Source: Patescibacteria group bacterium (GTDB lineage Bacteria; Patescibacteriota; Patescibacteriia; Buchananbacterales; UBA6539). From it: a stretch of DNA of 64,000 nt. The notes beneath the pieces were generated by a model. It searched no databases, had not been told where the DNA came from, and saw only the letters and a list, made by a program, of their open reading frames with translations. The position numbers were made by a program, and so were the translations under genes. Below, in pieces: positions 11,527-36,841 of this stretch. The stretch lies in NCBI GenBank assembly GCA_041649675.1, contig JBAZMQ010000001.1:64792-128791 (forward strand), in the 5' to 3' direction. Every line of letters begins with the position of its first letter. Within the stretch, counting starts at the first letter, position 1.

Positions 11527-12096
11527 ATGAGTACAAACCAATTTGGTTTAGTTGATTTGGAGTCAGTTAATCCAAAGATAAAAATTGACATTCGTTACGC
11601 TAGCCAAGATAATTTCACAAAGAAAAAACTCTATTCTAGCGCCAGATGTTTTTTACAAAAATCAACGGCTCAAAAATTAAGTGATATCCAAAACAAGCTA
11701 GAAAAGCAAGGATTAGGTTTAAAAATTTGGGATGGCTATCGGCCGCTTTCAGTTCAAAAAGAATTATGGAAGATTATGCCTGACGAGCGTTATATTGCTA
11801 ATCCCCAAACTGGTTCGGATCACAATCGAGGGATTGCCGTTGATTTAACCTTGGTTGATTTGCAGGGCAAGGATTTACTGCTGCCAACGGAATTTGATAA
11901 TTTCAGTCCCAAGGCTCACCGAAATTGTTTTGATTTAACCGAAGAACAGATTAAGAATCGAAAAATTTTGGAAGATATTATGGTCAAAAGCGGTTTTATT
12001 CCTTTTCCGACTGAATGGTGGCATTTTGCCGATAGCGAAGGTAAGGATTTACCAGTTTTGGATATTGATTTTGTGGCCCTATCGTCTAGCGGCTAG
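11527..12096 (+). CDS. D-alanyl-D-alanine dipeptidase-like peptidase M15 (VanX/DdpX family)
   Basis: IDIRYASQDNF, DGYRP...LW, SDHNRGIAVDL and EWWHF motifs. Start taken at the internal Met (ORF track 11500). Confidence 0.7.
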   Translation: MSTNQFGLVDLESVNPKIKIDIRYASQDNFTKKKLYSSARCFLQKSTAQKLSDIQNKLEKQGLGLKIWDGYRPLSVQKELWKIMPDERYIANPQTGSDHNRGIAVDLTLVDLQGKDLLLPTEFDNFSPKAHRNCFDLTEEQIKNRKILEDIMVKSGFIPFPTEWWHFADSEGKDLPVLDIDFVALSSSG

Positions 12097-12149
12097 GACA
12101 TCAGGTTCTCATCCTGAAAACCGGGGTCCGATTCCCCGTGGGGCTACCA
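12075..12149 (+). tRNA. tRNA, Glu-like (anticodon CUC by manual fold), with encoded CCA
   Basis: Manual cloverleaf: acceptor GGCCCTA/TGGGGCT, D-arm TCGTCTAGCGGCTAGGACA (Glu-type), anticodon stem TCAGG/CCTGA with loop TTCTCAT, T-arm CGGGG-TCCGATT-CCCCG, then A + CCA. Two oddities: C at position 55, and the first 22 nt overlap the 3' end of the upstream CDS. Confidence 0.6.
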
Positions 12150-12153
12150 AAGG

Positions 12154-12188
12154 GAACTACTTAGTGAAAAAGTAGTTCTTTTTGTTTT
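12154..12188 (+). terminator. Intrinsic terminator after the tRNA
   Basis: GAACTACTT-agtgaaa-AAGTAGTTC followed by TTTTTGTTTT. Confidence 0.7.
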
Positions 12189-12311
12189 AGTTAAGAGAAG
12201 AAATCGAGTTTGCCACTTTAAAATCGTGGTGGTAAACTTAAAATTGATTAAAAACATTAAATTTGCAATAATTTAAACGATTTGAGTTGAGTTTGTCGCC
12301 AATGCCGGTCG

Positions 12312-13157
12312 ATGAACTATAAATATACTATGTCGGATTTAACTGCTATCGAAAAAAGAAAGCTTGAAAAACATTTTCAAATGGGAGGTGGGGTAGTTTG
12401 CAACTTTTCTAATAGAACTTTTGCAAATCAAGTTTTAGATTCTATTGGTTTAGATGTATATGTTGATAAATATAAAATTTTTGGTGAATCAAAGGCTAAT
12501 CGATTGAGGGCTCTCTGGAAGATCGAGAATAACTATACGATATCAAAACTTCTTATTGGCATTTTAGAATATTGGAAAGCAGAGCGGACTTTACTAAGTG
12601 TTGATGAAAGTATGTGGAGCGAAGCCTTTAACCCTGAGCTACATGAAGAATGTTTAAAAATAGCTGAGCGTTTAAAAAATAATACTGCGATGGGAGATTT
12701 AGATGCCTTAGAACAATATAATCTTGATGATAATTATGAATTATTAACTGATTCGATAAAGACAAGCATACTTAAAGATAAACCCGATCAAGCGATTGAT
12801 AGAATGCATACGTTTACAATAAAACGTATGCGCTTACTTTGTGACAAACACAATATTAAATATAGTAAGGATACTTTTCTCCATACTTTATTTGGTAACT
12901 ACGTGAAATTTTTGGAGGAAAATAAATTGATTCAATCAGAAATGTCATTAAGAATTTTGAAATCGTCAATTTCTATCTTGGACGCCTTTAACTCCGTAAG
13001 GAATAGCCATAGTTTAGCGCACGATAATGAAATTTTAAATAGAAATGAAAGTATACTAATTTTTAGTAATATTTTTAGTCTTATTAAATTTATTGATGCT
13101 ATAGAAGAGAGCTCTTCCAGCAACACAACTAATGAGATTGAGAATATCCCTTTTTAA
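12312..13157 (+). CDS. Abi-like protein with C-terminal HEPN-type motif (putative abortive-infection/toxin RNase)
   Basis: 281 aa, very AT-rich. C-terminal R-x6-H (VRNSHSLAHDN) resembles the HEPN Rx4-6H motif. Sits in the island next to the recombinase; its 3' end overlaps the recombinase 3' end by 29 nt. Confidence 0.45.
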   Translation: MNYKYTMSDLTAIEKRKLEKHFQMGGGVVCNFSNRTFANQVLDSIGLDVYVDKYKIFGESKANRLRALWKIENNYTISKLLIGILEYWKAERTLLSVDESMWSEAFNPELHEECLKIAERLKNNTAMGDLDALEQYNLDDNYELLTDSIKTSILKDKPDQAIDRMHTFTIKRMRLLCDKHNIKYSKDTFLHTLFGNYVKFLEENKLIQSEMSLRILKSSISILDAFNSVRNSHSLAHDNEILNRNESILIFSNIFSLIKFIDAIEESSSSNTTNEIENIPF

Positions 13158-14553
13158 TAAATTGTAGTTCGTCATCATAATCAACTCCATCAGGCGTAAC
13201 CCTGATGTTTTTTAATAGACTATCTATCAGCCTGCGCTTTTGTTCTCCGTTGGCTTGCTGGTAAGCGTGAACGGGATCACCCAGCAGACTGGCTAATTCT
13301 AATTTATGATTTAACCCACCGTCATCATTTGGATTAATTCTTTGCAACTCACTTTCAAGCTCAGCTATATTCTTGGCGTACTCGGCCCGCTTCAGGTCAA
13401 ACATATCTCTGGGAATCTCGCCATCTATATTTTTATCAATCAGCTTGCTTAGCCTTAATCTGGCTTGCCCGATTTGAAGAACAATTGATTCCTTCTTTTG
13501 AATCATGGCCAAGGCTAATGATTTTTTGGTTTTATGAGCTTGCTCAATCATCTCATCGACTTGGTCGGGCGTGAACCGTATCTTTGTTAATTCGTCTAAT
13601 ATCCAAGTCTCAACCAACTCTTCCTTTATAGGCTTCATGCTGCACAATTTATTACGGCAGTAGTAATAGTGGTATTTATGCTTTGATGTCGTTGACCGCA
13701 AGCGCTTTCCACAGAGACCGCAACTCAGAATATGGACAAATTTGTATTCGTTGACTTGCAACTTAGGTATTGCATGCCGTTTTTTGACGGCCTGTACTTT
13801 GCTATAAAGTTCTTCCGAGACTAATGGCTGATGTTGCCCTTGAAAGATCTGCCCCTTTACCGTGACAAAGCCCAGGTAATATTTATTATTCAAAAGCGTG
13901 CAGAGCTTTGTATATCTCATTTTATTGCCGAAACTACTCCGTAAGCCTTTGTTAAACATAATGGTCTCTAAATCAAGCAGTGAATATTCGCCAGTGGCAT
14001 ACAGTTTGAAACATTCCGAAATAAGCGGACCCATAATCGGATCCACTACACGTATGCTCTTGCCGCCCTTTACATAACCTGTCGGCACATTGCCGAATGG
14101 CGAATAACCCTGACTCAGCCGTTTGTACATGCCCTCTTTTACCCTGGTACTCAAAACACGAGTGTCATTTACCGCCATGACCGCTTTAACGTCAGCCATC
14201 AGCCTATCGCCGTTACTTTTGAGCTGAATGTTTTCCCGGCTTAGATGGATTTCCAAACCCTCGTCCATCAAATTACTGATTATCGCCCAGTCACGAAAGT
14301 TCCGACTGCTTCGGTCGACATCGTGAAAAATAATACCGGCAATATCATTCCGTGATTCAAGGTCGCCGATCATCTCGTAGAATTTTTTGCGTTTGGCAAT
14401 TTTTGATGCGCTCTGAACTTCCCGAAATTCTTTGGCAATGACAAGACTGTGACTATTCGCGTATGCGACAATAGCTTCACGTTGGGCATCCAAGGATACA
14501 CCGTCCCTTTCCTGCCCCTTTGAACTGACTCGATAATAGCTGAAATATTTCAT
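13129..14553 (-). CDS. Large serine recombinase (resolvase/invertase N-domain plus recombinase and zinc-ribbon/coiled-coil C-terminal domains)
   Basis: N-terminus YYRVSSKGQ..DGVSLDAQ with catalytic Ser and conserved R/D; 474-aa length; Cys cluster (CGLCGKRL...YYCRNKLC) typical of LSR zinc ribbon. Confidence 0.85.
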   Translation of the reverse strand: MKYFSYYRVSSKGQERDGVSLDAQREAIVAYANSHSLVIAKEFREVQSASKIAKRKKFYEMIGDLESRNDIAGIIFHDVDRSSRNFRDWAIISNLMDEGLEIHLSRENIQLKSNGDRLMADVKAVMAVNDTRVLSTRVKEGMYKRLSQGYSPFGNVPTGYVKGGKSIRVVDPIMGPLISECFKLYATGEYSLLDLETIMFNKGLRSSFGNKMRYTKLCTLLNNKYYLGFVTVKGQIFQGQHQPLVSEELYSKVQAVKKRHAIPKLQVNEYKFVHILSCGLCGKRLRSTTSKHKYHYYYCRNKLCSMKPIKEELVETWILDELTKIRFTPDQVDEMIEQAHKTKKSLALAMIQKKESIVLQIGQARLRLSKLIDKNIDGEIPRDMFDLKRAEYAKNIAELESELQRINPNDDGGLNHKLELASLLGDPVHAYQQANGEQKRRLIDSLLKNIRVTPDGVDYDDELQFIKKGYSQSH

Positions 14554-14634
14554 CGTCGTTGTAATTTGATTATATGAGACAAGCGTTTGATTTCGAATGA
14601 TTTCTGACTATTTCCTGTATGTTGACCGATATTC

Positions 14635-14685
14635 TCTGCATCTCAGTTTCCCGTAACCTTTAGGTTACGGAAACTGAGATGCAGA
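14635..14685. repeat. 51-bp near-perfect palindrome (24-nt arms around TTTA) immediately upstream of the serine recombinase gene
   Basis: TCTGCATCTCAGTTTCCCGTAACC-ttta-GGTTACGGAAACTGAGATGCAGA; single 1-nt bulge. Confidence 0.8.
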
Positions 14686-14697
14686 ATTAGATTACGG

Positions 14698-15639
14698 CTA
14701 CGTTAGCCGATAAAAATGTTTTCCCTTGACCCCGACTTCCTTCTCAAGTTTTTTATCCTTAACCATCCGATCAAGCAATTCATCTGTAGCCGACTCGCCA
14801 ATTAAACTTTTTACAGATTCAACTAAATCCTGTCTTGATTTGATCCCGTTATCTTTTATCTCTTCGATAATTTTTGTCCAAGCCATGTCATTCTTGTCTT
14901 CCTCCTGCTTTGTCGTTCCTGCATAACTAAATTTTACCGATTTGTCAGATTTATCAATTTTTAACTGGAACGTATCCATCTCTTCGGCGATTCTTAATTT
15001 GCCCTGAGTAACTTCGATAATGGTTTTTTTATTACGTGCGGCAACCATTAAATGACAATCCACAGCAGCCAAAATATCCGACGACCCTCTTAGGTTAATA
15101 TTTGATTGACCACGTTCGTTACCCTTTCTTAAATGGTGGGTAATTATTACAGTAACTCCTAAGTTTGTAATCTTGTTAAACAGCGAAAAAACATCCGACA
15201 CCTGTCCCGCAATATTCTCATCTTTGCCGTGGATTCTAACAAAGCTGTCAATACATACGAGCCTAATTTTTTTAGCTTTTATGAACCTTAGTAAGTCTTC
15301 TTCGTCTTCAAGTTTATCAATCCGAAACCCATGTTTACTGGAGATGTGAATCACTCCCTTATTTGTCATGTTGACTAACTTGAACCGTTCCTTCATAAAA
15401 CTTAAATTATTTTCCTCATCGATTATCAGCACCTTCCCTTTTAAACAGTCAAATTGGTCAAATAGTTTTTCACCAAGTGAAACAGATTTTGCAATTTCGA
15501 TCAGTATCCAGGTTTTAAAGTTTCCAGGATGGCCAGACAGAATTGTGATTCCTTGGGCAGGAATTAAATCCTTAATTAACCATTTCGGTGCTTTTAGATT
15601 TTTGCGCAATAATTTTGCGACTGCTATAGTATGTAACAT
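14698..15639 (-). CDS. RecA-like/AAA_25-type ATPase (RepA-like replication/primase-helicase loader of mobile elements)
   Basis: Walker A-like GHPGNFKT, Walker B VLIIDEEN, and a C-terminal winged-helix-like tail; family assignment from memory. Confidence 0.55.
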   Translation of the reverse strand: MLHTIAVAKLLRKNLKAPKWLIKDLIPAQGITILSGHPGNFKTWILIEIAKSVSLGEKLFDQFDCLKGKVLIIDEENNLSFMKERFKLVNMTNKGVIHISSKHGFRIDKLEDEEDLLRFIKAKKIRLVCIDSFVRIHGKDENIAGQVSDVFSLFNKITNLGVTVIITHHLRKGNERGQSNINLRGSSDILAAVDCHLMVAARNKKTIIEVTQGKLRIAEEMDTFQLKIDKSDKSVKFSYAGTTKQEEDKNDMAWTKIIEEIKDNGIKSRQDLVESVKSLIGESATDELLDRMVKDKKLEKEVGVKGKHFYRLT

Positions 15640-15981
15640 ACAAGTTTAGATTATTGAGATTAATTAGAACGACTAAAACTAAAACTAGCCAGGCCCATCT
15701 CGGCAATTAAAAAACATCTCGTCATAAATTTCTAAAATAACGTCTATATATTCATATGATATTTTTTGCTGTTGCTTGTATTGCATAAAAAATAAACAAA
15801 AAAAGCCCGCAACAGCATATGAACTAAGTGTTCACACACTATTGCGGGCTCCTTACCGCTTCTGACCATCACTCGCGATGGATTTTCCTACAAAAATGTA
15901 GTACCGTCTTTAATTTTTAATATTCAATTTAGTCACCTTACACCTTATTTTAAAAAAAGTCAAGACTAAGCCTGTGTATAA

Positions 15982-16476
15982 TTATTTTAATTTTAATAAA
16001 AAATCTACAATAAATTTTACAAAAGGCTCACTTTTTTCCTGGGCAAATTTTTTGGCTTTACGCTCATCTTCAATAAAAAGGGAATCTCGTTCTATTGGAG
16101 GTTGTCCAGTTTTTTTATCAATAATTAATTGATTGAATCGATCAATCTCATCGGCATAATCATAAATACCGTCTACGGCTATACTGTTATATGTTCCACA
16201 TTCACAGATGGCAGCCATCTCTTCATATTTAACAACTAATGTGGTTTTATTCCCAACTTTCATTTTTGCTCGACTACCGTGTATATCTGCAACAATCATT
16301 TTTTTGCAATTAGAACAAACCCAAGTTTCAATTCCAGCCTCAGGGTTAATCTGTATTCTACCGTTTGTTATAATTTCATTTGTAGGCCTTGCCTTATTCG
16401 CCTCTTCAAGTGATCCAAAAATTTTGATTTTTTCTTGGTTGATAGAATCTAGTAATTTTTTATTCATGTAAGTCAT
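15982..16476 (-). CDS. Hypothetical protein with Cys4 zinc-ribbon-like motif (CSNC...CECG)
   Basis: 164 aa; no family recognised. Confidence 0.4.
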   Translation of the reverse strand: MTYMNKKLLDSINQEKIKIFGSLEEANKARPTNEIITNGRIQINPEAGIETWVCSNCKKMIVADIHGSRAKMKVGNKTTLVVKYEEMAAICECGTYNSIAVDGIYDYADEIDRFNQLIIDKKTGQPPIERDSLFIEDERKAKKFAQEKSEPFVKFIVDFLLKLK

Positions 16477-16848
16477 ACAGTTTAAATTAAATCTACCTTT
16501 ATTTTACACAAAAAAATACCGTTTTGTCCAAACGGAGTCAAATTCAGTCGTATTTTACAAGTTTACCCCTTGGCGATAGGGTAATTCTTTTTTTACTATA
16601 TGCGGCTCTAAATCGTCCGTTTTAACATCCTAGCGCCGTGATTAAACTCGAACTGGCTGTCAATAACGCTAGCCTAAAGCGATCTGAAATTATGAGTTTA
16701 AATACATATAGAGCTTGCCCCGAAATAGCATAGAGAGAATTTAAAGAATATTTTGATCAATTTTTGAGGCTGCAACTGCTATGCTTCGAATGATTTGATT
16801 TAAAATAATCGACAATTTCAGACGTAAAGTATTTGAAGGCAAGTAGTT

Positions 16849-17061
16849 TTACTTTGGCTGAATCATTTCCCAAAGATACTGTTTCTCTAGCTCCAGCGAT
16901 TTTATTTTTGCGTCATGCAGCATTTCCTGATTTTTGATTTCAACATCAATAGCTTCTAGTCGTGCCATTACCTCCAAAAATTTATCCGGATTAACCCCTT
17001 TCTTCGCTCGCTTCTTTCTAAGATGTTTAACGTCCGCTCCTTGAACTTTTTTATTTGTCAT
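16849..17061 (-). CDS. Small basic coiled-coil protein (70 aa), unknown
   Basis: Lys/Arg-rich N-terminus and heptad-like C-terminus; could be a DNA-binding regulator. Confidence 0.3.
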   Translation of the reverse strand: MTNKKVQGADVKHLRKKRAKKGVNPDKFLEVMARLEAIDVEIKNQEMLHDAKIKSLELEKQYLWEMIQPK

Positions 17062-17072
17062 ATTGTGTTCGA

Positions 17073-17591
17073 TTATTTATATTTTCTTATACAGTCTACT
17101 TTACAGACACTTCTTTGGGTACCAGTTAAATTATTATCACTGCATTCATTTATGCAATCTTCGTATTTTGATTGAACCGATATATATTTTTGTCTTGATA
17201 TATATTTAATCGAGTAAACAATGCCGATCAATAATGTTACTACGACTATAGGCACAAATATACCAATAATAAATTGTTTATTAATCGAAGTAGTTTTTAT
17301 ATTACCTAACTGCGGTCTACTTTGTTTAGTCGCTTTCCATATCGATTTAATTATAAAATATAATCCTAAAATATTCAGGGCAAAGGCGATAAATGATGCA
17401 CCACCCCCGACCAGATATCCAACGTAATTACAAACAATAATTAACCCAAAACCAATAGCTAATGATAACAAAAGATTGTCGGTTGTTTTTTCGACAAATT
17501 TTGGTTCTTTCATAGAGTTAGTTTTAAAAAAATAATTAATATTGTTGTAATCAAAAAACCCACCGCTAGGGCGGTAGCTTGCGCTACCCAT
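17073..17591 (-). CDS. Membrane protein (3 TM) with Cys-rich C-terminal tail (CINECSDN...CKVDCIRKYK)
   Basis: Hydrophobic profile; the likely start is the internal Met (MKEPKF). Confidence 0.4.
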   Translation of the reverse strand: MGSASYRPSGGFFDYNNINYFFKTNSMKEPKFVEKTTDNLLLSLAIGFGLIIVCNYVGYLVGGGASFIAFALNILGLYFIIKSIWKATKQSRPQLGNIKTTSINKQFIIGIFVPIVVVTLLIGIVYSIKYISRQKYISVQSKYEDCINECSDNNLTGTQRSVCKVDCIRKYK

Positions 17592-17609
17592 ACTCCTTTC
17601 GGAATATGA

Positions 17610-17657
17610 CCTGGTTAAGGGATACCCTAAACGATGGGATCTATGTCCTTAACCAGG
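17610..17657. repeat. Inverted repeat CCTGGTTAAGGGA...TCCTTAACCAGG (13-bp arms, ~23-bp spacer)
   Basis: Located between the divergent membrane gene and gajA. Confidence 0.6.
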
Positions 17658-17810
17658 ATTTTCAGCCATGCCCCACAAATGCAAGGTTTAGGCTGGTTTG
17701 ATTGTACCCATTAATATTAATCTTTTTGCTAAATTTTGTAAATATTCGCTTGATTTTTGGCGTAAAAGGAGCTAATGTAAATTTAAAGCTATAAAAAATA
17801 ACCAATAAAT

Positions 17811-19724
17811 ATGAAGATTAAAAGACTAAAAATTGAAAATTTCCGATCAATTAAATCCTTGGACATTGAATTGGATGACACTTCGGTTTTTATCGGCGCT
17901 AATAATGCTGGTAAGTCTTCAATACTGGAAGCAGTACGAATTGCTTTATCTCGAAGATGGGGTCAACAAGGGACTGGGTTTACTGAGGATGATATTCATT
18001 TAGTTAACGATAAGATAGATCCTCGGAATGCGCCACCAGTAAAAATTCGTTTTGAGTTTGAAGAAGGATCATCGGGAGAATGGCCTACGGACATGGTGGC
18101 TGAACTTGAACAAATAATGACTCTTACGCCCACAAATTTAAATAAAGTTACGTTTACGATATCTTATATATGGAATCCCGAAAAGGAGTTGTTTGAAACA
18201 ACCTGGCAATTCCTGAATTCATCGGGAGATCCATTCCCGTCGGCTAGTAGATCAGTTAACTTCTCTGGATTTTTTAATTATATAATTTTTCTTTGGGTAG
18301 GTGCTTTACGAGATGCAGATGATGAGTTTACATCACATTCACGTAATTGGGGTGGTCTTTTGAAATCCATTAAAATTCCAAAAGAAATCGAAGAGGAGAT
18401 AAAAAATGATCTCGATGTTCTTGATGAAAAATTACTTCGGGCTGATCCCAAATTTTTGCAGATATCAGAAACCATTGGAAAAGCAACTGAAATTACTATT
18501 GAAAATGGTCCTGGTTCTGCAAAAATTCGTATGCTGCCAATAAATGTTTGGGATATGATTACACGAGCTGGTATAATTCTTAAAAATGAAGACTTGCGCC
18601 CCTGGCTTCCGCTTAATCATCATGGTCAAGGCCTTCAAAGTTTATCAATTATTTTTCTGTGCCATGCTGCAGCGGCTCAAAAACTTGTTGAGAATAATTT
18701 TGGTGCTGAACCCATATACGCAATTGAAGAGCCGGAAGTTCATCTACATCCTCAGGCTGCTCGTACTTTATGGTCCAAGATGACTGAAATTGCTGGGCAA
18801 AAATTAATAACAACTCATTCGCCTTATTTTGTTCAGAACGTGCCACTCCATAGCCTTAGAGTTGTTCGTTTGCAGGATGATTCTACTTCAATTTCATTTT
18901 TACCAAAAAAGATTGAGTCTGATATACCGTGGACAGAAGACGTTGAAAATTTTGTTAAAGGAGCAGGCAGAAATTATTTTAAATTGAATAAGCTAACCAA
19001 CTCAATTGATGCCATTCAAAGTTTTGATGAAAATATTATGAATGATTTAGTACATTGCTGGAAAGTAGATAATGACGACCTAATATCGAATAAAATAAAA
19101 GAATTACGACGTAAGTCTAGCGTACTTGTCTCAGAAGAAGAAGAAAGAAATTTATCTTTTCAAGGAAGACGTATTCGTGGAGAAATATTTTTTGCACGTT
19201 TTTGGGTTTTGGCGGAAGGGGTATCTGAATATTTGTTACTCAAAGCCATTGGTGATGCTTATGAATTTGATTTAGATCAATATGGTGTAGCAATTATTGA
19301 TTTTCAGAATAATGGAAGGCCAGATATCTATGCAGCTTTAGCAGAGGCTTTTAAAATCCCGTGGTTTATGATTACTGACGGCGATGGTGCTGGAGAAGCC
19401 ATGAGAAAGCAACTATCAAAAAGAGGATTTGATGCTAAATATCTTCAAGAACATTCTGATTTTTTGCAATCGCCAAATACTCTTGAGGCTCAGCTACTTG
19501 CTGATGGAAATGGACCTCTACTTAGAAAAATTATTGCAGACACTGGTGATACTAGTGCATTGACATGCTCAGTTGATGATTTTAAAAATAAACTTAGCAA
19601 TAAAAAAACTCCCTGTATGAGTCGTCTCGCTTCATTAGTCTCAAGAGATATAACTCTCGCAAAGAAAATGCCAGAAAAATTTATTTCAATAATTGAAAGA
19701 ATTAAATCTGACCATCAATTATGA
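17811..19724 (+). CDS. gajA: Gabija GajA-like OLD-family protein: N-terminal ABC-type ATPase plus C-terminal Toprim nuclease
   Basis: N-terminus KIENFRSIKSLDIEL..VFIGANNAGKSSILEAV (OLD/AAA_15-like P-loop). C-terminus Toprim_OLD-like (VLAEGVSEYLLLKAIG...IIDFQNNG...ITDGDGAG with E and DxD). The TGA stop overlaps the ATG of the downstream helicase (ATGA). Confidence 0.75.
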   Translation: MKIKRLKIENFRSIKSLDIELDDTSVFIGANNAGKSSILEAVRIALSRRWGQQGTGFTEDDIHLVNDKIDPRNAPPVKIRFEFEEGSSGEWPTDMVAELEQIMTLTPTNLNKVTFTISYIWNPEKELFETTWQFLNSSGDPFPSASRSVNFSGFFNYIIFLWVGALRDADDEFTSHSRNWGGLLKSIKIPKEIEEEIKNDLDVLDEKLLRADPKFLQISETIGKATEITIENGPGSAKIRMLPINVWDMITRAGIILKNEDLRPWLPLNHHGQGLQSLSIIFLCHAAAAQKLVENNFGAEPIYAIEEPEVHLHPQAARTLWSKMTEIAGQKLITTHSPYFVQNVPLHSLRVVRLQDDSTSISFLPKKIESDIPWTEDVENFVKGAGRNYFKLNKLTNSIDAIQSFDENIMNDLVHCWKVDNDDLISNKIKELRRKSSVLVSEEEERNLSFQGRRIRGEIFFARFWVLAEGVSEYLLLKAIGDAYEFDLDQYGVAIIDFQNNGRPDIYAALAEAFKIPWFMITDGDGAGEAMRKQLSKRGFDAKYLQEHSDFLQSPNTLEAQLLADGNGPLLRKIIADTGDTSALTCSVDDFKNKLSNKKTPCMSRLASLVSRDITLAKKMPEKFISIIERIKSDHQL

Positions 19725-21616
19725 CTTCGAATTTTGATGAATCGTTTATTGAACTTAGTCCAATTCAACGTGATGCCGTTAACTGGGGTGATGGCGCTCT
19801 TTTAGTTCTTGCTGGCCCCGGCGCAGGGAAAACAAGAGTTCTTACTACCCGCATTGCCAAATTAATTTCTGATAATCCTGAACGAAAATTTAAGATCTTA
19901 GCATTAACATTTACCACCAAAGCTGCATCCGAAATGCATGATCGCGTAGAGACGCTAATACCTGGAGTTGTTGATAATAGAACATTTATCGGAACATTCC
20001 ATGCTTATTGCACTCAAATTTTACGGCAGCATGGTTCTCATATCAACATTCATCCTGATTTTAGCATATTTTCCCAAAGAGAAGATCAGGAAGCTCTTCT
20101 GCTTGATGCAATTAATTATTCAATAAAGCAAGGGAAAAAATTCTCAATTGATGACGTAAAATTGCTGGACACAATAAAAATTTTGAAATCTCGTTTAATT
20201 GTTCCTGAGAAAACATTACTAAATATTAACAACCCACATCTCAAGGAGGTATACGAACTATATGAGCAAGCATTGAAGAGTGAAAATGGAATAGATTTTG
20301 AAGGGCTCATCTTGGAAACTTGCAGATTACTCGCAAAGATGCCCGCAATTTCAGCCAGAATAAGACAATCATATCCCTATTGGCTGATTGATGAATTTCA
20401 GGACACCTCACCATCTCAGTATTGGCTCTTACATTATCTTGCCGGCGATCAATTTAAAAATATTTTCGTCGTTGCCGATGACGATCAGATAATTTATCAT
20501 TGGGCAGGTGCTAGTTATAGGCAGATAGAAAAATTTAGGGAAGAATATAAACCAGAGCTTATCCAACTTGTCGAGAATCATCGATGTCCACCTGAAATTG
20601 TTGATATGGCAAATCAATTAGTTGCTTATAATACCCAAAGAACACCTGACAAAAAACCCACAACTCCTGGAAGAGATATTCCTTTAGACGCCGTGCAAGT
20701 GAAAATTTTCGGCAATGATAGGGATGAATATGCGTCAATCTCCAATGCTATTTATTTACAAGGGGAGGGATCCTGGGGAAAGACAATAATTTTAGGCAGG
20801 ACAAAATCATTACTTGAATCTATGATAGAAAGTCTCAAATTAAAAGGTGTAAGGGCGGTGATATCACAAAGGAGAGACAATTTTATCTCACCGCAATTTA
20901 TTTGGTTGCAAGCAATGATTGATCAAATAATCCATCCTACCAATAAACGTATTTTTAATATTTTTGCATATGCGGCCAATAGGGTATGTGGCCTAGAATT
21001 CGACCCAATACTATTAATTGCCGAAGCAGAATCGGTGAGCAAAAATTACATTGAACATTGGTCAGAGATAGTCATGTCGTCCGATAATGATGTGGCAAAA
21101 AAATTGGGATCTTTAATTCAACAGCTCATCCAATCTAGGCAAAGTTGGAAAAAAATAGTCAAGGATGCTATAAGTACCTTACTTGAAACTGGTCGAGTTA
21201 CACAGGATGCCGTCAGTGACGCGGATGATGATTATAGAGCTTGGACCGCATGTTTAAGAGAAATTCAATCTGAAATTGGTCAAGACTTAGATCTTTCAGA
21301 TGTTGTTCAGGGAATAGCTCTCCGTTCAAAAGAACCTCCAATTGTACCTAATACGGTGACGCTCATGACAATACATGCAGCCAAAGGGCTTGAATTTGAA
21401 ATTGTGTATATCATCGGACTCGCAGAAGGAGAAATGCCATCCTGGCAAAGTTGTAAAAAGGGAGATACCTCACCTGAAATGGAGGAGGAGCGTAGAAATT
21501 GTTTTGTTGCAATTACCCGGACACAAGAAAAACTTGTGTTATCTTCTTCTGGGGTTTATAGGGGATTTGAAAAAAAATCATCCCGTTTTTTAAAAGAGAT
21601 GAAATTAATCTCATAG
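19721..21616 (+). CDS. gajB: Gabija GajB-like UvrD/PcrA/Rep-family SF1 helicase
   Basis: Walker A AGPGAGKTRVLT, motif II DEFQDTSPSQY, and a C-terminal helicase domain (TIHAAKGLEF...). Translationally coupled to gajA. Confidence 0.75.
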   Translation: MTSNFDESFIELSPIQRDAVNWGDGALLVLAGPGAGKTRVLTTRIAKLISDNPERKFKILALTFTTKAASEMHDRVETLIPGVVDNRTFIGTFHAYCTQILRQHGSHINIHPDFSIFSQREDQEALLLDAINYSIKQGKKFSIDDVKLLDTIKILKSRLIVPEKTLLNINNPHLKEVYELYEQALKSENGIDFEGLILETCRLLAKMPAISARIRQSYPYWLIDEFQDTSPSQYWLLHYLAGDQFKNIFVVADDDQIIYHWAGASYRQIEKFREEYKPELIQLVENHRCPPEIVDMANQLVAYNTQRTPDKKPTTPGRDIPLDAVQVKIFGNDRDEYASISNAIYLQGEGSWGKTIILGRTKSLLESMIESLKLKGVRAVISQRRDNFISPQFIWLQAMIDQIIHPTNKRIFNIFAYAANRVCGLEFDPILLIAEAESVSKNYIEHWSEIVMSSDNDVAKKLGSLIQQLIQSRQSWKKIVKDAISTLLETGRVTQDAVSDADDDYRAWTACLREIQSEIGQDLDLSDVVQGIALRSKEPPIVPNTVTLMTIHAAKGLEFEIVYIIGLAEGEMPSWQSCKKGDTSPEMEEERRNCFVAITRTQEKLVLSSSGVYRGFEKKSSRFLKEMKLIS

Positions 21617-21686
21617 ATAATAATGATTTATTGTAAAAATTAAAATTTCGGCCAATTAACAAATGATTTATAAGGTTCAATTTATA

Positions 21687-21715
21687 AGTTTGCCACTCAT
21701 TACGACAAGCTCTAC
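21687..21715 (+). repeat. Direct repeat A (AGTTTGCCACTCATTACGACAAGCTCTAC)
   Basis: About 25/30 identical to 25466-25495. Confidence 0.6.
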
Positions 21716-21877
21716 TTTAGTGATTGTGAGGTAGAGGCACGCTTTCTCCTTAGTTTACTCCAACCGAGGAGTAAACTGACCTACACATAAGAGTAGGAAT
21801 TTAAAGTATATTAGTATTTTTTTCTTAATTTACCAATCGCAATTTATAGGTCGCTTACCAGGCGATTTTTTAGTTTA

Positions 21878-21921
21878 ATAAAAAAATCCCTGCAGTCTTG
21901 TTTGGTACAAATCTGTAGGGA
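21878..21921 (-). terminator. Intrinsic terminator of the GH16 lipoprotein gene
   Basis: On the minus strand: TCCCTACAG...CTGCAGGGA followed by T7. Confidence 0.6.
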
Positions 21922-21941
21922 AAATATAATCAAAGGAACGG

Positions 21942-24218
21942 CTAGTTGACTGCCGGCGGTTTAATGAAGAACTGCTGGCCGATCGGGTCACGGCTATTTC
22001 CTAGGAAATAGGTTTTGACAAACGACAGTTCTTTGGTGTCACTGTCATAGCGCAAGACTTCTATTCCCTGGTGATCGAGGCTGCCATTATTGTAGTTGTA
22101 GGCGCTGCGAGCATAGACCAGACCGTCAGGTCCGACCTTGACGTAGTAGGCGCCGTACTGGGCATAACGGCTGACAACCGCATTGTCGGCAAAGCTATAG
22201 ACGGCAATTTCACCTTTACCATAGTAGGGATTGCCACCAGCTCCAATAAAGGCAAGGCTGCTGTCTGGCAAGAAATCAACTGCACCGGCAAAATCACCTA
22301 GGCCGGAGTAACCGAACTGGTGTTGGAAATTATGCAGGTCATAGACGCTGACCGAACCCCGTGCAGAGGAGTAGCTGGTTTGGAAGAAATAGTTGCCTAA
22401 CGGGTCAGTCAGGGCGAGGTGATGTCCATAGCTAACCGGCATAACCGAGGCATTCAGCGTATCCGTGGATAGATCCACCAGATTCCAGCTACCGTTTTCC
22501 ACTTGAGATAGTGTGCCATTATTCAAGCGGACGGTGTTGTAGCCGCCATCCACGTTAATAGGGAAGTTGCTATCCACAAGTGTTCGGGTCGTAATGTCGT
22601 ACTTGTTGTTTTCTAAGTAGCAGAACCGACTATCGGCCGAAAACAACGGCAGGTAATACGAGGTAGTCTCGTCTGATGCATAATACAAATCATTAGTGCT
22701 GATGGATGCGGGGAAAGGCAGAGGATCGCCGTTTAGCGTGTGATCCGAAGTCTGATAGACATTCCCTTTGACGTCAACAACATATTGCCCGTCAGGTGTT
22801 CCGGCTAGCATTATCACTTCGGGCAAAGCACCCCAGATCACGCTCTTAGTTAGATTAACCACCAGTGTGGCCGACAGGTCCTCGGTGGGCATATAAAGCA
22901 GCTCATCTTGGGTTGTGGTTAAACTTTGATCACAGGTGATTTTGTAAGTGATTGAATTACCCACCTTGTTGCCGGAATCATCTTGCCCTTGCAAAACGAA
23001 CTCATTGGTTCCGGGTTGTAGGGTGGCTAAGTAGAGAATCTTGCCGTAGAGGTCGGTTTTATCAGTAGGGATGACTTGGTCGCCAATTTGTACTTGGGTA
23101 ACCCGCCAGTCAAATACGGTTGTCAAGGGATAGCTGGTCAGATTGGTCGTCACCTTGATTTCGTCGGGCCAATCGGGTGGAGTTGGCTGAAAAGCAAACC
23201 CCGAAATCAGAACTGCCTGGGTCGCACCATTGCTTGGCGGCTTACCTTCAAACTGCCACAAGTTCAAGTGGACTCTTTCCTCGCCGGGCGTTGGCACAAG
23301 CGGACCTTCATATGACCATTTTTTAATCAAGGTGTCGGGATCTGTGGGCGGACTATCAAGATATTTACCTTGATAAGTGCGCATTTCCACTTTGCCCGGA
23401 CTCCAGATCAGGTAAGTGGTGATGTCGGCGTTTATGTCCTGGTGGAACCGATTACAGTTATCCATACCTACGAGACATTGGCCACAGGGTGGAACGGCGT
23501 ATTGGCAGTTGTTTTCGTCTGCGGCGTTGCCAAACTGACTGAATTCAAAGAAATCAATTTCCCGGTTGTTTGGGTCGGTGTCAGTATCATCCCACAGGAA
23601 AATACCGAAAACCAAATAAGAATCAGACGCCAGGGCGGGGTAGTGTTTCTTAAGTTGAACAATATACACGCCGTAGCCAAACGATTGGTCAAGAATTACT
23701 TCACTTGACTGCCATTTGCCGTCCTGTTCTTTGACTGCCAAATGAAGAACGCCGCTATCATCAACCCAGGCATTCTTTGGACTATACGAATTTGGTCCAG
23801 GACCAACCGGCGAAGGGTAACACTTTTTGGTCCACGGCAATCCGGAAAAATCAAACGCTAGGTTTTCGCTTTCGCATTCGTCTTCGCCCTCGCCTTCACC
23901 GCTTGGGATAACCATCAGCGTGGCTACGTTAGAATAGACACAGCCGGCTGAATTTTTGGCAAATGCCCGGTATTGTCCCGCATCATTTTCAGTGACAACG
24001 GGAAGTGATAGAATTTCTCCACCGGCATCGGCAACTATGATGTCATCTTTCAACCAGCCGATTGTTTCGGCGTTTTCAACTCCGACGCTAAACTGAACAT
24101 TCGCGCCGACGCTGACCGTCTGTGATACTGGCTGCTCGATGATTTTTGGCAGTTGAGGACAACCGGCCAAAAGTATCATTGCCGCTACAATCACAATCAC
24201 ATTCCATTTGCTTTTCAT
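21942..24218 (-). CDS. Secreted lipoprotein with glycoside hydrolase family 16 (beta-glucanase/laminarinase-like) domain plus Ig-like and beta-propeller-like regions
   Basis: Lipobox LLAGC; GH16 catalytic motif E-I-D-F-F-E (REIDFFEFSQ); (GE)n linker PSGEGEGEDECESE. Gene is markedly GC-rich relative to its neighbours. Confidence 0.55.
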   Translation of the reverse strand: MKSKWNVIVIVAAMILLAGCPQLPKIIEQPVSQTVSVGANVQFSVGVENAETIGWLKDDIIVADAGGEILSLPVVTENDAGQYRAFAKNSAGCVYSNVATLMVIPSGEGEGEDECESENLAFDFSGLPWTKKCYPSPVGPGPNSYSPKNAWVDDSGVLHLAVKEQDGKWQSSEVILDQSFGYGVYIVQLKKHYPALASDSYLVFGIFLWDDTDTDPNNREIDFFEFSQFGNAADENNCQYAVPPCGQCLVGMDNCNRFHQDINADITTYLIWSPGKVEMRTYQGKYLDSPPTDPDTLIKKWSYEGPLVPTPGEERVHLNLWQFEGKPPSNGATQAVLISGFAFQPTPPDWPDEIKVTTNLTSYPLTTVFDWRVTQVQIGDQVIPTDKTDLYGKILYLATLQPGTNEFVLQGQDDSGNKVGNSITYKITCDQSLTTTQDELLYMPTEDLSATLVVNLTKSVIWGALPEVIMLAGTPDGQYVVDVKGNVYQTSDHTLNGDPLPFPASISTNDLYYASDETTSYYLPLFSADSRFCYLENNKYDITTRTLVDSNFPINVDGGYNTVRLNNGTLSQVENGSWNLVDLSTDTLNASVMPVSYGHHLALTDPLGNYFFQTSYSSARGSVSVYDLHNFQHQFGYSGLGDFAGAVDFLPDSSLAFIGAGGNPYYGKGEIAVYSFADNAVVSRYAQYGAYYVKVGPDGLVYARSAYNYNNGSLDHQGIEVLRYDSDTKELSFVKTYFLGNSRDPIGQQFFIKPPAVN

Positions 24219-33178: not shown

Positions 33179-33298
33179 GGACCGACACCAAAATCGGTTT
33201 TTTTGTGATGTTGTAATGTGTTAGTCATAGGCTTCAATATTAGGTTGGGGCTTTGGTTTAAAATTGGCAGATCTCAAATAAAGGAAAGGTATTGTGCC

Positions 33299-36200: not shown

Positions 36201-36841
36201 TTTCGCCATACGGTGATCCGGAAGGTCGGGTGGACTTCGCGGTTACGTCGATTGACCCGGAGCTGTTTGACATCGTCGTTGATGTTTGGGCTGATGGCTT
36301 GGCTGAAGAGTCCTGGGGATTTGGTTGGCGCGCGAAGCCGAGCTTTGATATGCCAATCACCCAAATCGATTCCAGTAACCAAGGAACCGTGGATATCACT
36401 ACGGGTCCGGGTGATGTTTCTGCCACCGCGGTAAGCATTACCTTGAGATGGAAAACCGATTTCTTCCCGCCTTTGTATGGCCAAGTCGGTATTGATGGCT
36501 CTGATCCTTCCGGGCCGTTTATCCCTGGTGCAGTCGTTCAGAAGTTGATTTGTCTGGACCTGGACGGAAGCGGCACGTTTACCGGACCAGCCTACACCTT
36601 GACCATGGACGTTGTCGGCCAAGGTACGGTTGAACCCGGTTATGGTGATCACCATTATCCGGAAGTTATTCCCGCGGGTCAATTTGGTACCAATATCCTG
36701 GTTCGGGCAATACCTGACCCTGGATGGTATTTATTACGCTGGGAAGGTGCAACAGCGAGTGAAACGGATCTAACCTCCGTTGCGCTCGTTAATGAGCCAA
36801 CTCAAACGATAAGAGCGGTGTTTGCGGAGGAGACACCGTAA
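33299..36841 (+). CDS. Giant secreted/lipoprotein surface protein with repeated Ig-like (DUF5011-type) domains and a (GE)n acidic linker
   Basis: Start taken at the internal Met with lipobox LLGVGC (ORF track 33218). Repeats of the type P.ITLLGDNP..V......DPG.T..D..DG.L (DUF5011-like). Strongly GC-rich relative to the genome, giving many antisense phantom ORFs. Confidence 0.55.
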   Translation: MKNRVLLTLLVLAVVLLGVGCPNSEPEFSVPRYDAAGNYLGTMALSSLDVVQDPQVVLNPPDNQIILTAKNFALERAYGEFTIWVSKEYPEVELSLQLFGPKKAEEAEKNLSHEQLAALSIFANAIGMGQHFSSWTDFIQVRNGTVTATIPFPELVVRMTVIRLESASATNSDAAFVFSNPLPFDEGEGEEGEGEGEIEGQNEGEGGTEGEIEGETPDNCGGGVATISVTFKPNVALFNLTSPTPATSVIEFDVAGMIGANLAAASYVIGADTLVYGPKDLQPIVNCSAKLLVCDNQNDANQIASIIVIYDKTKVPTPAGGLPSLGQLSGEVKRLTVAYTTSKSITIDKAPGIDDADGIVCGSVSGAIPAGAKVAVRTKINGNWKPFPPFVEVVNGKWCHNIYVATGDNRYSEIEAWLMAADADFPWTDAKADDVPLATTVYKRVPSISITSFPRPGTGDPEIVRVDTIVSDASKYKCVIEALTIVDGHQQWVIQLTSGQPLLSLDAFSQAAGTVSTYRVLKYWAWLVEYPLPGAIPQCTDIGIDCLGETPPSVPGWVAWNWVGLNPAIDTTPPVITLLGDNPAIVDVFTPWVDPGVTITDPDDGDLTANLVVTGAVNTSVLGTYMVHYNVSDASGNPATEVIRTVVVVDRGFPVITLPVSSPQSWDVGVTYVASVATVTDNYDTGLTAQVVVSVDTTKPGSGSVTYTAIDSSGNTTTVILVVNVVDNTPPVIEPIADITMHQWDFQTVQLTATDNIPTGLVWKSVVSSDPLLELDFTQDGLVRLYTHDVAGVATVTVTLADASGLETIAIFQVTVCECQGPLIEVLQSPSYGTWDNLLVKVTCYNPNDLVLFTQVSVPSDLEAILPPKPAGPWWPKDNWGLAGLKVIDPITKEANIQVATGGFDNTANAISVAAVQAVVNGVPLAASDLPPGNDLQQAYIGIEPFQIRGTLNSLFIDKTPKIVPLFVSPYGDPEGRVDFAVTSIDPELFDIVVDVWADGLAEESWGFGWRAKPSFDMPITQIDSSNQGTVDITTGPGDVSATAVSITLRWKTDFFPPLYGQVGIDGSDPSGPFIPGAVVQKLICLDLDGSGTFTGPAYTLTMDVVGQGTVEPGYGDHHYPEVIPAGQFGTNILVRAIPDPGWYLLRWEGATASETDLTSVALVNEPTQTIRAVFAEETP

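What the first reader, a model, noticed from the sequence alone, without database searches (positions are those of the whole stretch)
17811..21616. Complete Gabija-like (class 2 OLD + UvrD) operon
GajA-like protein (637 aa): OLD-type ABC ATPase N-domain plus Toprim with conserved E and DxD. GajB-like protein (631 aa): SF1 helicase with Walker A, DEFQD and motif VI. The genes are translationally coupled by an ATGA overlap. Both proteins are about 60-140 aa longer than the Bacillus prototypes as I recall them (GajA about 578 aa, GajB about 494 aa); the extra length may be lineage-specific insertions.
Basis: partly seen in the sequence, partly recalled or inferred. Interest (0 to 1): 0.5.

Follow-up and report, generated by a model that had tools for sequence, protein, structure and literature searches.

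The report
Ordinary Gabija defence operon in CPR bacterium
This is an intact two-gene Gabija anti-phage system (an OLD-type ATPase-nuclease plus a UvrD-like helicase) in an uncultivated Patescibacteria genome; it belongs to a large, already modelled subfamily, so it is a routine find.

Summary
PADLOC Gabija models match both proteins end to end (GajA PDLC00062, E 7e-217; GajB PDLC00114, E 3e-223), and those models are 639 and 635 positions long. More than 1,600 homologues of the first protein are almost all 636-642 aa. So the extra length over the Bacillus prototypes is a subfamily trait, not a local oddity. In GajA it is mainly one discrete ~72-aa module (residues ~365-436) between the ATPase and Toprim domains; it is shared across phyla and absent from a sister clade. 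GajB is simply a full-size PcrA/UvrD-like core, and Bacillus GajB is the trimmed form. The OLD-helicase pairing holds in 75 of 80 representative genomes; four of the five exceptions are truncated contigs. The operon lies next to a tRNA-Glu-associated serine-recombinase element. The mechanism (nucleotide-gated DNA nicking by a GajA-GajB complex) is inferred by homology only. Verdict: a new member of a known kind, low interest. A side observation may deserve its own look: the orphan LOOT RNA just upstream is recurrently linked to large serine recombinases in metagenomes.

The parts
17811..19724 (+). gajA: class 2 OLD-family ATPase-nuclease, 637 aa
   Evidence: ORF. PADLOC GajA PDLC00062, E 7.2e-217, residues 1-632 on model positions 1-635 of 639. 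Pfam AAA_15, DUF2813 and OLD-like_TOPRIM. The AF2 model (pLDDT 79) is closest to Thermus OLD 6p74 (E 4.8e-22) and B. cereus GajA 8x5i/8sm3 (E ~1e-20).
17895..17918 (+). GajA Walker A (G29-ANNAG-K35-S36)
   Evidence: Translation. G29, N31, N32, G34 and K35 are invariant in 27 family members. Aligns to the BcGajA N-terminus.
18726..18749 (+). GajA Walker B / D-loop (E306-E307-P-E309-V-H311-L-H313)
   Evidence: Invariant in the family alignment. Aligns to BcGajA 'LIEEPEISLH'.
18903..19118 (+). Subclade-specific ~72-aa inserted module of GajA (residues ~365-436), between the last ATPase strands and the linker to Toprim
   Evidence: A clean 72-column gap in the sister clade (L013-L025), but present in L006, L007, L009 and L011. 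HMMER anchors give +73 aa relative to BcGajA between the H-loop region and the Toprim Glu. Predicted as a confident strand-helix-strand-strand-helix-helix unit, pLDDT 83-95. No Pfam family matches.
19188..19385 (+). GajA Toprim core (residues 460-525) with E469, G502, D523-x-D525
   Evidence: Pfam OLD-like_TOPRIM, E 9.4e-15, full model. Residues invariant. E469 aligns to BcGajA E379. Also aligns to the Burkholderia/Xanthomonas class 2 OLD Toprim constructs 6nk8/6njv.
19721..19724 (+). ATGA start/stop overlap coupling gajA and gajB
   Evidence: Sequence. A 4-nt overlap is also the commonest junction in related loci (about 26 of about 75).
19721..21616 (+). gajB: UvrD/PcrA/Rep-like SF1 helicase, 631 aa
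   Evidence: PADLOC GajB PDLC00114, E 2.8e-223, residues 9-630 on model positions 5-632 of 635. Pfam UvrD-helicase and UvrD_C. The AF2 model (pLDDT 85) is closest to PcrA 1pjr, E 7.6e-36. Scores far below the NCBIfam equivalog cut-offs for housekeeping PcrA/Rep/UvrD (319 against 911 bits).
21848..21878 (+). Terminator-like hairpin plus T-run downstream of gajB (putative operon end)
   Evidence: Consensus scan only. The 3' intergenic region 21617-21900 folds somewhat better than shuffles (z = -2.9). Function not shown.
17573..17694 (-). Context: LOOT RNA gene (Rfam RF03000), divergent from gajA and 117 nt upstream of it, with its own terminator at 17577..17560
   Evidence: Rfam 93.6 bits (gathering score 46.4), full length. 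Terminator-like site. Not found in four other Gabija loci, but present at the edge of a fifth, L208.
13129..14553 (-). Context: large serine recombinase (integrase) of the adjacent mobile element
   Evidence: Pfam Resolvase, Recombinase and Zn_ribbon_recom. PHROG 95 integrase, E 3.6e-76.
14698..15639 (-). Context: AAA_25 primase/helicase-like ATPase of the element backbone
   Evidence: Pfam AAA_25, E 8.9e-26. PHROGs DNA primase / polymerase-primase families.
12075..12149 (+). Context: tRNA-Glu(CTC), probable integration site of the element
   Evidence: ARAGORN and Rfam. The same layout, with a recombinase 3' end facing a tRNA, recurs in at least 9 other loci.
12312..13157 (+). Context: Abi_C-domain protein between the tRNA and the recombinase (possible second defence cargo)
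   Evidence: Pfam Abi_C, E 5.6e-9. No PADLOC or PHROG match.

Best explanation
The locus is an intact, translationally coupled Gabija (class 2 OLD + UvrD-like helicase) anti-phage cassette in a Patescibacteria (CPR) genome. It lies beside a serine-recombinase mobile element associated with tRNA-Glu.

Shown here: gene 1 encodes an ABC-type ATPase fused to a Toprim nuclease with a complete two-metal site (E469, G502, D523xD525). Gene 2 encodes an SF1 helicase with all core motifs. The two genes are co-inherited as a pair across phyla.

Inferred by homology with B. cereus Gabija: GajA oligomerises through the helical insert in its ATPase domain, and GajB docks onto it to form a large complex. The Toprim nuclease is held off by normal cellular NTP/dNTP levels and is released when phage replication depletes nucleotides or produces DNA ends that GajB senses. 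DNA nicking or cleavage then aborts the infection.

This subfamily differs from the Bacillus prototype in two ways: a ~72-aa extra module between the ATPase and Toprim domains, and a helicase that keeps the full PcrA/UvrD size. Details such as sequence specificity, ATP hydrolysis by GajA, and real unwinding by GajB may therefore differ.
For: - Full-length matches to curated Gabija HMMs and Pfam domains above threshold.
- Catalytic residues invariant in 27- and 28-member family alignments.
- E469 aligns to BcGajA E379, and the E-to-DxD spacing is 54 aa against 53 aa.
- The predicted GajA fold is closest to solved OLD and GajA structures. The predicted GajB fold is closest to PcrA/UvrD/Rep.
- ATGA overlap.
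- The pair is conserved in 6 of 6 inspected homologous loci, surrounded by R-M, Abi, TA, TIR and integrase genes. It is also conserved in 75 of 80 species-representative loci, where GajA and GajB identities fall in parallel.
- The helicase is not a housekeeping PcrA/UvrD/Rep.
- The published definition equates class 2 OLD with GajA (PMC10568477). The mechanism of the prototype is taken from PMC10781630, PMC10681800 and PMC8136825.
Against: - No experiment exists on this subfamily. By sequence it is distant from the only well-studied Gabija: BcGajA scores E 1e-12 even with a profile, and the match is mostly N-terminal; BcGajB scores E 1e-12. GajA is actually nearer to the class 1 Thermus OLD (E 8e-28).
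- The published class 2 OLDs from Burkholderia and Xanthomonas behave differently from BcGajA: they are non-specific nucleases, and ATP has a negligible effect on cleavage (review table). So nucleotide gating cannot be assumed here.
- No clear sigma-70-like promoter or Shine-Dalgarno sequence was found upstream of gajA.
- The class 2 helical insert in Toprim could not be verified, and the region after the Toprim Glu is about 32 aa shorter than in BcGajA.
Confidence: 0.88

Rival explanations
1. A class 1 (stand-alone) OLD nuclease that merely happens to sit next to a housekeeping PcrA/UvrD helicase. On this reading there is no two-gene system.
For: By sequence the OLD protein is closer to the class 1 Thermus OLD (6p74) than to BcGajA. 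It also matches DUF2813, the E. coli YbjD-type domain. The helicase is closest to PcrA.
Against: The genes overlap by 4 nt. The same pair recurs in 6 of 6 inspected loci and in 75 of 80 representative genomes, with parallel divergence of the two proteins. The helicase scores 319 bits against a cut-off of 911 for the PcrA equivalog, and it lacks about 95 C-terminal positions of that model. Both proteins match Gabija-specific HMMs end to end.
Confidence: 0.03
2. A DNA-repair or mobile-element maintenance module (nuclease plus helicase serving the adjacent serine-recombinase element) rather than an anti-phage system.
For: The operon lies next to a recombinase/primase-like backbone. One close relative also has a serine recombinase directly adjacent. 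The helicase retains a full-size PcrA-like core. An archaeal OLD family with a non-defence role exists (PMC12796447, listed).
Against: Most homologous pairs sit among classical defence genes and without this recombinase. None of the 120 LOOT-pattern loci (24 of them with a serine recombinase) carries a GajA homologue, and only two have weak GajB-like hits. The family is the one used by PADLOC to call Gabija.
Confidence: 0.06
3. Another OLD-like or ABC-Toprim defence system, mis-filed as Gabija: PARIS (AriA/AriB), Septu (PtuA/PtuB), a retron-associated class 3 OLD, or a class 4 OLD.
For: The ATPase domain gives secondary hits to AriA (E 2e-38), PtuA and the retron Eco8 effector. A structured RNA (LOOT) lies just upstream.
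Against: Those hits cover only the ATPase domain and are far weaker than the GajA match (131 against 720 bits). Toprim is fused here, whereas PARIS has it on a separate protein. There is no HNH partner and no reverse transcriptase in the neighbourhood. LOOT is not a retron ncRNA family and is absent from most homologous Gabija loci.
Confidence: 0.02

Closest known systems
Bacillus cereus VD045 Gabija (GajA 578 aa / GajB 494 aa; PDB 8SM3, 8J4T, 8JQB, 8X5I)
   Same: Two-gene operon. GajA is an ABC ATPase with a helical dimerisation insert plus a Toprim domain with Glu, Gly and DxD (E469/D523/D525 against E379/D432/D434). GajB is an SF1 UvrD-like protein with Walker A, DExQD and motif VI. The GajA fold match has E ~1e-20.
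   Different: Only about 13-17% identity in structural alignments. Relative to BcGajA, GajA here has about +17 aa in the ATPase insert, +73 aa (the discrete 365-436 module) before Toprim, and about -32 aa after the Toprim Glu. Relative to BcGajB, GajB here has about +42 aa in the 1B region and about +76 aa in 2A/2B. BcGajB is not among the top 50 structural matches. BcGajB lacks the UvrD gating helix, GIG motif and separation pin (PMC10681800); whether this GajB keeps them was not resolved.
Class 2 OLD nucleases of Burkholderia pseudomallei and Xanthomonas campestris (PDB 6NK8, 6NJV)
   Same: [quoted passage not shown] The Toprim core aligns (residues ~445-530 to positions 2-89 of the constructs, E ~3e-8 with the family profile).
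   Different: Only the isolated Toprim regions are solved, so no full-length comparison is possible. The class 2 helical insert in Toprim was not verified here.
Thermus scotoductus class 1 OLD (PDB 6P74)
   Same: The best sequence and fold match of the first protein (E 8e-28 with the profile; Foldseek E 4.8e-22). Same ATPase-insert-Toprim order.
   Different: TsOLD is a stand-alone gene of 528 aa. The window protein has a conserved helicase partner and about 70 extra residues between the ATPase and Toprim domains (window 373-457 against TsOLD 347-363).
PcrA / UvrD / Rep housekeeping helicases (PDB 1PJR, 2IS6, 1UAA)
   Same: Collinear over 1A/1B and 2A (10-323 to PcrA 10-322; 539-616 to PcrA 552-626). 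26-29% identity, Foldseek E ~1e-35.
   Different: Fails all NCBIfam equivalog cut-offs. The 2B region (~324-538) does not align by pairwise HMMER. The C-terminal ~95-100 residues of PcrA are missing. Always paired with an OLD nuclease.

Membership tests
Gabija (GajA/GajB) = class 2 OLD + UvrD-like helicase | Protein 1 is an OLD-family protein with an N-terminal ABC-type ATPase (Walker A, signature-like motif, Walker B, H-loop) | tested here: met
   Pfam AAA_15, AAA_21 and SMC_N-type hits. K35, H271-GQGLQSL, E306/E307/E309 and H336 are invariant. Fold match to OLD/GajA.
Gabija (GajA/GajB) = class 2 OLD + UvrD-like helicase | C-terminal Toprim domain with invariant Glu, Gly and DxD (BcGajA E379, G409, D432/D434) | tested here: met
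   Pfam OLD-like_TOPRIM, full model. E469, G502 and D523/D525 are invariant. E469 aligns to E379. Prototype residues taken from PMC10781630.
Gabija (GajA/GajB) = class 2 OLD + UvrD-like helicase | Adjacent, co-oriented UvrD/PcrA/Rep-like SF1 helicase gene (the feature that defines class 2) | tested here: met
   ORFs and ATGA overlap. Pfam UvrD-helicase and UvrD_C. Definition taken from PMC10568477.
Gabija (GajA/GajB) = class 2 OLD + UvrD-like helicase | Full-length match to curated Gabija profile HMMs for both genes | tested here: met
   PADLOC PDLC00062 (720 bits, 1-635 of 639) and PDLC00114 (741 bits, 5-632 of 635).
Gabija (GajA/GajB) = class 2 OLD + UvrD-like helicase | The pairing is conserved among homologues (co-inheritance) | tested here: met
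   6 of 6 inspected loci. 75 of 80 representative-genome loci, with 4 of the 5 exceptions being truncated contigs.
Gabija (GajA/GajB) = class 2 OLD + UvrD-like helicase | Helical insert within the Toprim domain that distinguishes class 2 from class 1 OLDs | tested here: inconclusive
   The model has helices after the DxD (H526-538, H542-548, H558-636). However, the region after the Toprim Glu is about 32 aa shorter than in BcGajA, and no residue-level superposition was possible with these tools.
Gabija (GajA/GajB) = class 2 OLD + UvrD-like helicase | GajA tetramer plus GajB forming a 4:4 supramolecular complex | not testable with these tools
   Only single-chain structure prediction is available. 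The dimerisation-insert region (166-189, 221-272) is the low-confidence part of the model.
Gabija (GajA/GajB) = class 2 OLD + UvrD-like helicase | Nucleotide-inhibited DNA nicking and protection against phage | not testable with these tools
   Needs experiments. Known only for Bacillus-type systems (PMC8136825 and PMC10781630).
Class 1 OLD (stand-alone) | A single gene with no helicase partner | tested here: not met
   A helicase gene overlaps the stop codon, and the pairing is conserved.
Housekeeping PcrA / UvrD / Rep | Score above the NCBIfam equivalog cut-off | tested here: not met
   pcrA 319 against 911 bits; rep 276 against 951; uvrD 260 against 1144.
Retron-associated class 3 OLD / PARIS / Septu | Reverse transcriptase plus ncRNA (class 3), a separate Toprim protein AriB (PARIS), or an HNH partner PtuB (Septu) | tested here: not met
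   None of these partners is in the neighbourhood. Toprim is fused. Scores against AriA, PtuA and Eco8 models are far below the GajA score and below the NCBIfam cut-offs.

The most novel reading that the evidence does not exclude
The Gabija pair is cargo at the edge of a family of tRNA-integrating serine-recombinase elements in CPR bacteria, and the orphan LOOT RNA is a conserved, functional component of those elements (for example, it controls or assists recombination or replication of the element). In addition, this Gabija subfamily, with its extra 72-aa module and full-size PcrA-like helicase, would work differently from the Bacillus prototype (for example, with genuine unwinding or translocation feeding the nuclease).
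Probability: 0.2. Interest if true: 0.5.

Novelty: new member of a known kind. Interest (0 to 1): 0.15.

Why it matters
In itself it matters little. Gabija is among the commonest defence systems, this subfamily already has dedicated PADLOC models, and defence systems in CPR bacteria have been catalogued (PMC12259885).

Two modest points are useful:
- The best-studied Gabija (B. cereus) is an atypically compact representative. Across phyla the typical pair is about 560-640 aa plus about 600-645 aa, and the helicase looks much more like PcrA/UvrD than BcGajB does. Conclusions drawn from the prototype, such as "GajB cannot unwind DNA", may therefore not generalise.
- The locus gives a concrete example of Gabija next to a small serine-recombinase element in an ultra-small genome.

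The LOOT-recombinase linkage seen in passing could give a functional handle on an orphan RNA family.

Tried and rejected
- Direct repeats that could mark att sites between 11.9 and 25 kb: only short AT-rich chance matches. Serine recombinases need none, so the island borders remain undefined.
- PADLOC, PHROGs and NCBIfam on the small island ORFs, the Abi_C protein and the 758-aa neighbour: nothing useful beyond the integrase and the primase-like ATPase.
- Pfam on the inserted GajA segment alone, with E up to 10: no family.
- hmmalign occupancy of the insertion across distant OLDs: discarded as an artefact, because the C-terminal halves were trimmed into insert states. Replaced by pairwise BLASTP and MAFFT.
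- phmmer of the GajB C-terminal segment against PDB: no BcGajB anchor, so the 2A/2B excess is located only approximately.
- Literature on LOOT: nothing beyond its listing and a covariation remark. The supplement of the original description is not held.
- A crude second-motif filter for LOOT was too strict. Replaced by covariance-model searches.
- Homology-breakpoint test for whether LOOT moves with the recombinase: suggestive but not decisive at 67% identity.
- Synteny-based search for an empty site: no LOOT locus carries homologues of the window's flanking genes.


Full report
**Observation.** The second ATG overlaps the first TGA stop (…caattATGActtcg…).
- Protein 1: Walker A G29-ANNAG-K35-S; an ABC signature-like H271-GQGLQSL; Walker B/D-loop IEEPEVHLH (E306, E307, E309, H311); H-loop H336; Toprim E469-G; D523-G-D525.
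- Protein 2: Walker A AGPGAGKT (K37), DEFQD (224-228), motif VI VAITRT (R600).

All of these residues are invariant in alignments of 27 and 28 family members at 49-68% identity.

**Family assignment.** PADLOC's Gabija models match both proteins over their whole length. GajA PDLC00062 gives E 7.2e-217 (residues 1-632 on positions 1-635 of 639). GajB PDLC00114 gives E 2.8e-223 (residues 9-630 on positions 5-632 of 635). The next non-Gabija models (AriA, Old, PtuA) are several-fold weaker and cover only the ATPase domain. Pfam gives AAA_15, DUF2813 and OLD-like_TOPRIM for protein 1, and UvrD-helicase plus UvrD_C for protein 2, all above the gathering scores.

**Source and family size.** The exact proteins are on record from an NCBI MAG named 'Patescibacteria group bacterium' (contig of 173,776 bp), annotated only as 'AAA family ATPase' and 'ATP-dependent helicase'. 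The same locus also appears in an independent Logan assembly. More than 1,600 GajA-like proteins with E <= 1e-10 were found, and the listed ones are almost all 636-642 aa. The GajB-like proteins are 627-641 aa. The nearest relatives are only 65-68% identical and include Candidatus Uhrbacteria and Pedobacter.

**Relation to solved structures.** By sequence the first protein is nearer to the class 1 OLD of Thermus scotoductus (6p74; E 9e-17, or 8e-28 with the family profile) than to B. cereus GajA (E 1e-12 with the profile). The AF2 model (pLDDT 79, pTM 0.77) matches TsOLD (E 4.8e-22) and BcGajA (8x5i_D E 8.6e-21; 8sm3_A E 1e-20) about equally well. Retron-Eco8 OLD and Septu PtuA come behind.

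The profile alignment pairs window E469 with BcGajA E379, the catalytic Toprim glutamate. The distance to the DxD is 54 aa, against 53 aa in BcGajA (E379, G409, D432/D434 per PMC10781630).

The helicase is much nearer to PcrA/UvrD/Rep (phmmer E 1e-68; Foldseek E 7.6e-36; 26-29% identity) than to BcGajB (E 1e-12; not in the structural top 50). It nevertheless fails every NCBIfam equivalog cut-off for the housekeeping enzymes (pcrA 319 against 911 bits) and lacks about 95 C-terminal positions of the PcrA model.

**Where the extra length is.**
- GajA. HMMER anchors against BcGajA are 1-70 to 1-68, 288-362 to 269-343 and 462-486 to 370-394 in profile numbering. That gives about +17 aa in the ATPase insert, +73 aa between the H-loop region and the Toprim Glu, and about -32 aa in the C-terminal part. 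A MAFFT/BLASTP comparison with the nearest shorter clade (GajA 562-576 aa, 27-36% identity) shows a single clean 72-column gap covering window residues ~365-436. The segment is present in Pedobacter, a betaproteobacterial MAG, Polaromonas and a Planctomycetia MAG. In the model it is a confident small strand-helix-strand-strand-helix-helix unit (pLDDT 83-95) with no Pfam match.
- GajB. The anchors 20-96 to BcGajB 6-76 and 214-299 to BcGajB 152-238 place about +42 aa in the 1B region and about +76 aa in 2A/2B. Against PcrA the protein is collinear (10-323 to 10-322; 539-616 to 552-626). So this helicase has the ordinary UvrD/PcrA core size, and BcGajB is the reduced form. BcGajB is reported to lack the gating helix, GIG motif and separation pin of UvrD (PMC10681800).
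- Across 80 species-representative genomes, class 2 OLD proteins run about 540-670 aa and their helicases about 540-670 aa. So 637/631 aa is unremarkable.

**Is it a two-gene system?** In six inspected homologous loci the ~637-aa OLD gene is always followed by a ~633-aa UvrD-like gene, usually overlapping it. The neighbours there are AbiH, R-M, toxin-antitoxin, TIR, Mrr, PLD-SNF2 and integrase genes. In a scan of one genome per species, 75 of 80 OLD loci have a UvrD-like gene immediately downstream on the same strand. Four of the five exceptions are contigs that end there. The identities of the two proteins fall together (59/63, 43/48, 32/38 %…). [quoted passage not shown]

**Context.** The layout reads as follows:
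- tRNA-Glu(CTC), 12075-12149
- Abi_C protein, 12312-13157
- large serine recombinase, 13129-14553 (-); PHROG integrase, E 4e-76
- AAA_25 primase/helicase-like ATPase, 14698-15639 (-)
- three small ORFs
- LOOT RNA, 17573-17694 (-), with its own terminator
- gajA-gajB
- 325-nt spacer with a terminator-like hairpin
- a 49%-GC lipoprotein gene with Ig-like and GH16-like features (-)
- housekeeping genes

gajAB has the local GC content (~36-37%). No att-like direct repeats were found, so it remains open whether gajAB is inside the recombinase element or just beside it. One close relative (62% identity) also has a large serine recombinase directly adjacent.

**Mechanism.** The following are shown by sequence or prediction: the domain composition, the intact catalytic sites, translational coupling and co-inheritance. 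The following are inferred from the Bacillus system (PMC8136825, PMC10781630, PMC10822852, PMC10681800): GajA oligomerisation through the ATPase insert, GajB docking, nuclease inhibition by physiological NTPs, activation on nucleotide depletion or DNA-end sensing, and DNA nicking leading to abortive infection. The review's table shows that the Burkholderia and Xanthomonas class 2 OLDs are non-specific nucleases on which ATP has a negligible effect. The regulatory details therefore cannot be transferred with confidence to this distant subfamily.

**Novelty.** This is a routine member of a known system. Dedicated HMMs for this very subfamily have existed since 2023. Defence systems in CPR bacteria, including their relatively high density, have been surveyed (PMC12259885). 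Interest is low.

**Side observation.** The Rfam LOOT RNA next to the operon is an orphan family. A conserved-core pattern scan of metagenome contigs gave 120 loci. A covariance model built from 17 verified copies called 77 strong full-length LOOTs, 13 weak or partial matches and 30 non-LOOT chance matches.
- A homologue of the window's serine recombinase (22-34% identity) occurs in 21 of 77 LOOT loci, in 3 of 13 weak loci, and in 0 of 30 chance loci (161 kb of control).
- Among LOOT loci with at least 3 kb of flank, 9 of 25 have one on the 5' side and 6 of 29 on the 3' side.
- The recombinase's 3' end typically faces a tRNA gene (Asn x4, Glu x3, His, Asp). LOOT lies beyond the recombinase's 5' end, in either orientation, 0.2-6.7 kb away. 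The window follows this layout.
- A further Gabija locus of the same subfamily (L208) has a full LOOT at the island edge next to grpE-dnaK, with no recombinase within the 20 kb held on LOOT's 5' side.
- In related copies, recombinase, spacer and LOOT align as one block. For the L190/L195 and L123/L195 pairs the block ends about 23 nt past LOOT. At about 67% identity this does not distinguish an element-borne RNA from a host RNA gene that is an insertion hot spot.
- I found no mention of this linkage in the searchable literature.

Noticed in passing
window 17573-17694 (-); loci L088-L208: The orphan Rfam LOOT RNA (93.6 bits, with its own terminator at 17577..17560) lies 117 nt upstream of gajA. 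In metagenomes, 21 of 77 verified LOOT loci carry a large serine recombinase within about 7 kb, against 0 of 30 chance-match control loci. The usual layout is tRNA / recombinase / ... / LOOT, as in the window. The data do not decide whether LOOT is an RNA carried by the element or a host RNA gene that acts as an insertion hot spot.
   Followed up: partly
L208 19833-19962 (+): A second Gabija locus of the same subfamily (GajA 59% identical) also has a full-length LOOT RNA (Rfam 78.8 bits). It lies at the edge of its defence island, directly next to grpE-dnaK, and no serine recombinase lies within the 20 kb held on LOOT's 5' side.
   Followed up: partly
window 12075-17591: A small mobile-element backbone lies next to tRNA-Glu(CTC): an Abi_C-domain protein, a large serine recombinase (PHROG integrase, E 4e-76), an AAA_25 primase/helicase-like ATPase and three small ORFs with no family match. 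No att repeats were found, so the element's borders are undefined.
   Followed up: partly
window 21942-24218 (-): A 758-aa ORF has 49% GC in a ~36% GC region. It has a lipoprotein-type signal (…LLAGC), an N-terminal Ig-like domain (weak Pfam and PHROG 'tail protein' hits) and a GH16-like EIDFFE motif. It is probably a surface protein, possibly acquired horizontally.
   Followed up: partly
window 33218-36841 (+) and ~59000-60000: Two further high-GC patches (53-54%) occur in the low-GC window. The first coincides with a 1207-aa ORF. No rRNA or other Rfam family was detected there.
   Followed up: no
window 21617-21941: The 325-nt non-coding spacer after gajB contains a perfect 10-bp hairpin (about 21752-21777) and a terminator-like hairpin (21848-21868). 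It folds moderately better than shuffles (z = -2.9). It could be the operon's 3' end or an element boundary.
   Followed up: partly
L004 and L087/L208, upstream of gajA: In two unrelated contigs the Gabija pair is immediately preceded by the same two large genes: a PLD-SNF2 helicase of about 1050 aa and an Eco57I-like methyltransferase of about 1200 aa. These abut gajA, which suggests a recurrent larger defence cassette.
   Followed up: no
L003 358-707 and 11296-11359: The Uhrbacteria Gabija locus carries DUF3800-V and DUF3800-IX RNAs next to a DUF3800 gene. This is another set of orphan RNA motifs in a CPR defence neighbourhood.
   Followed up: no
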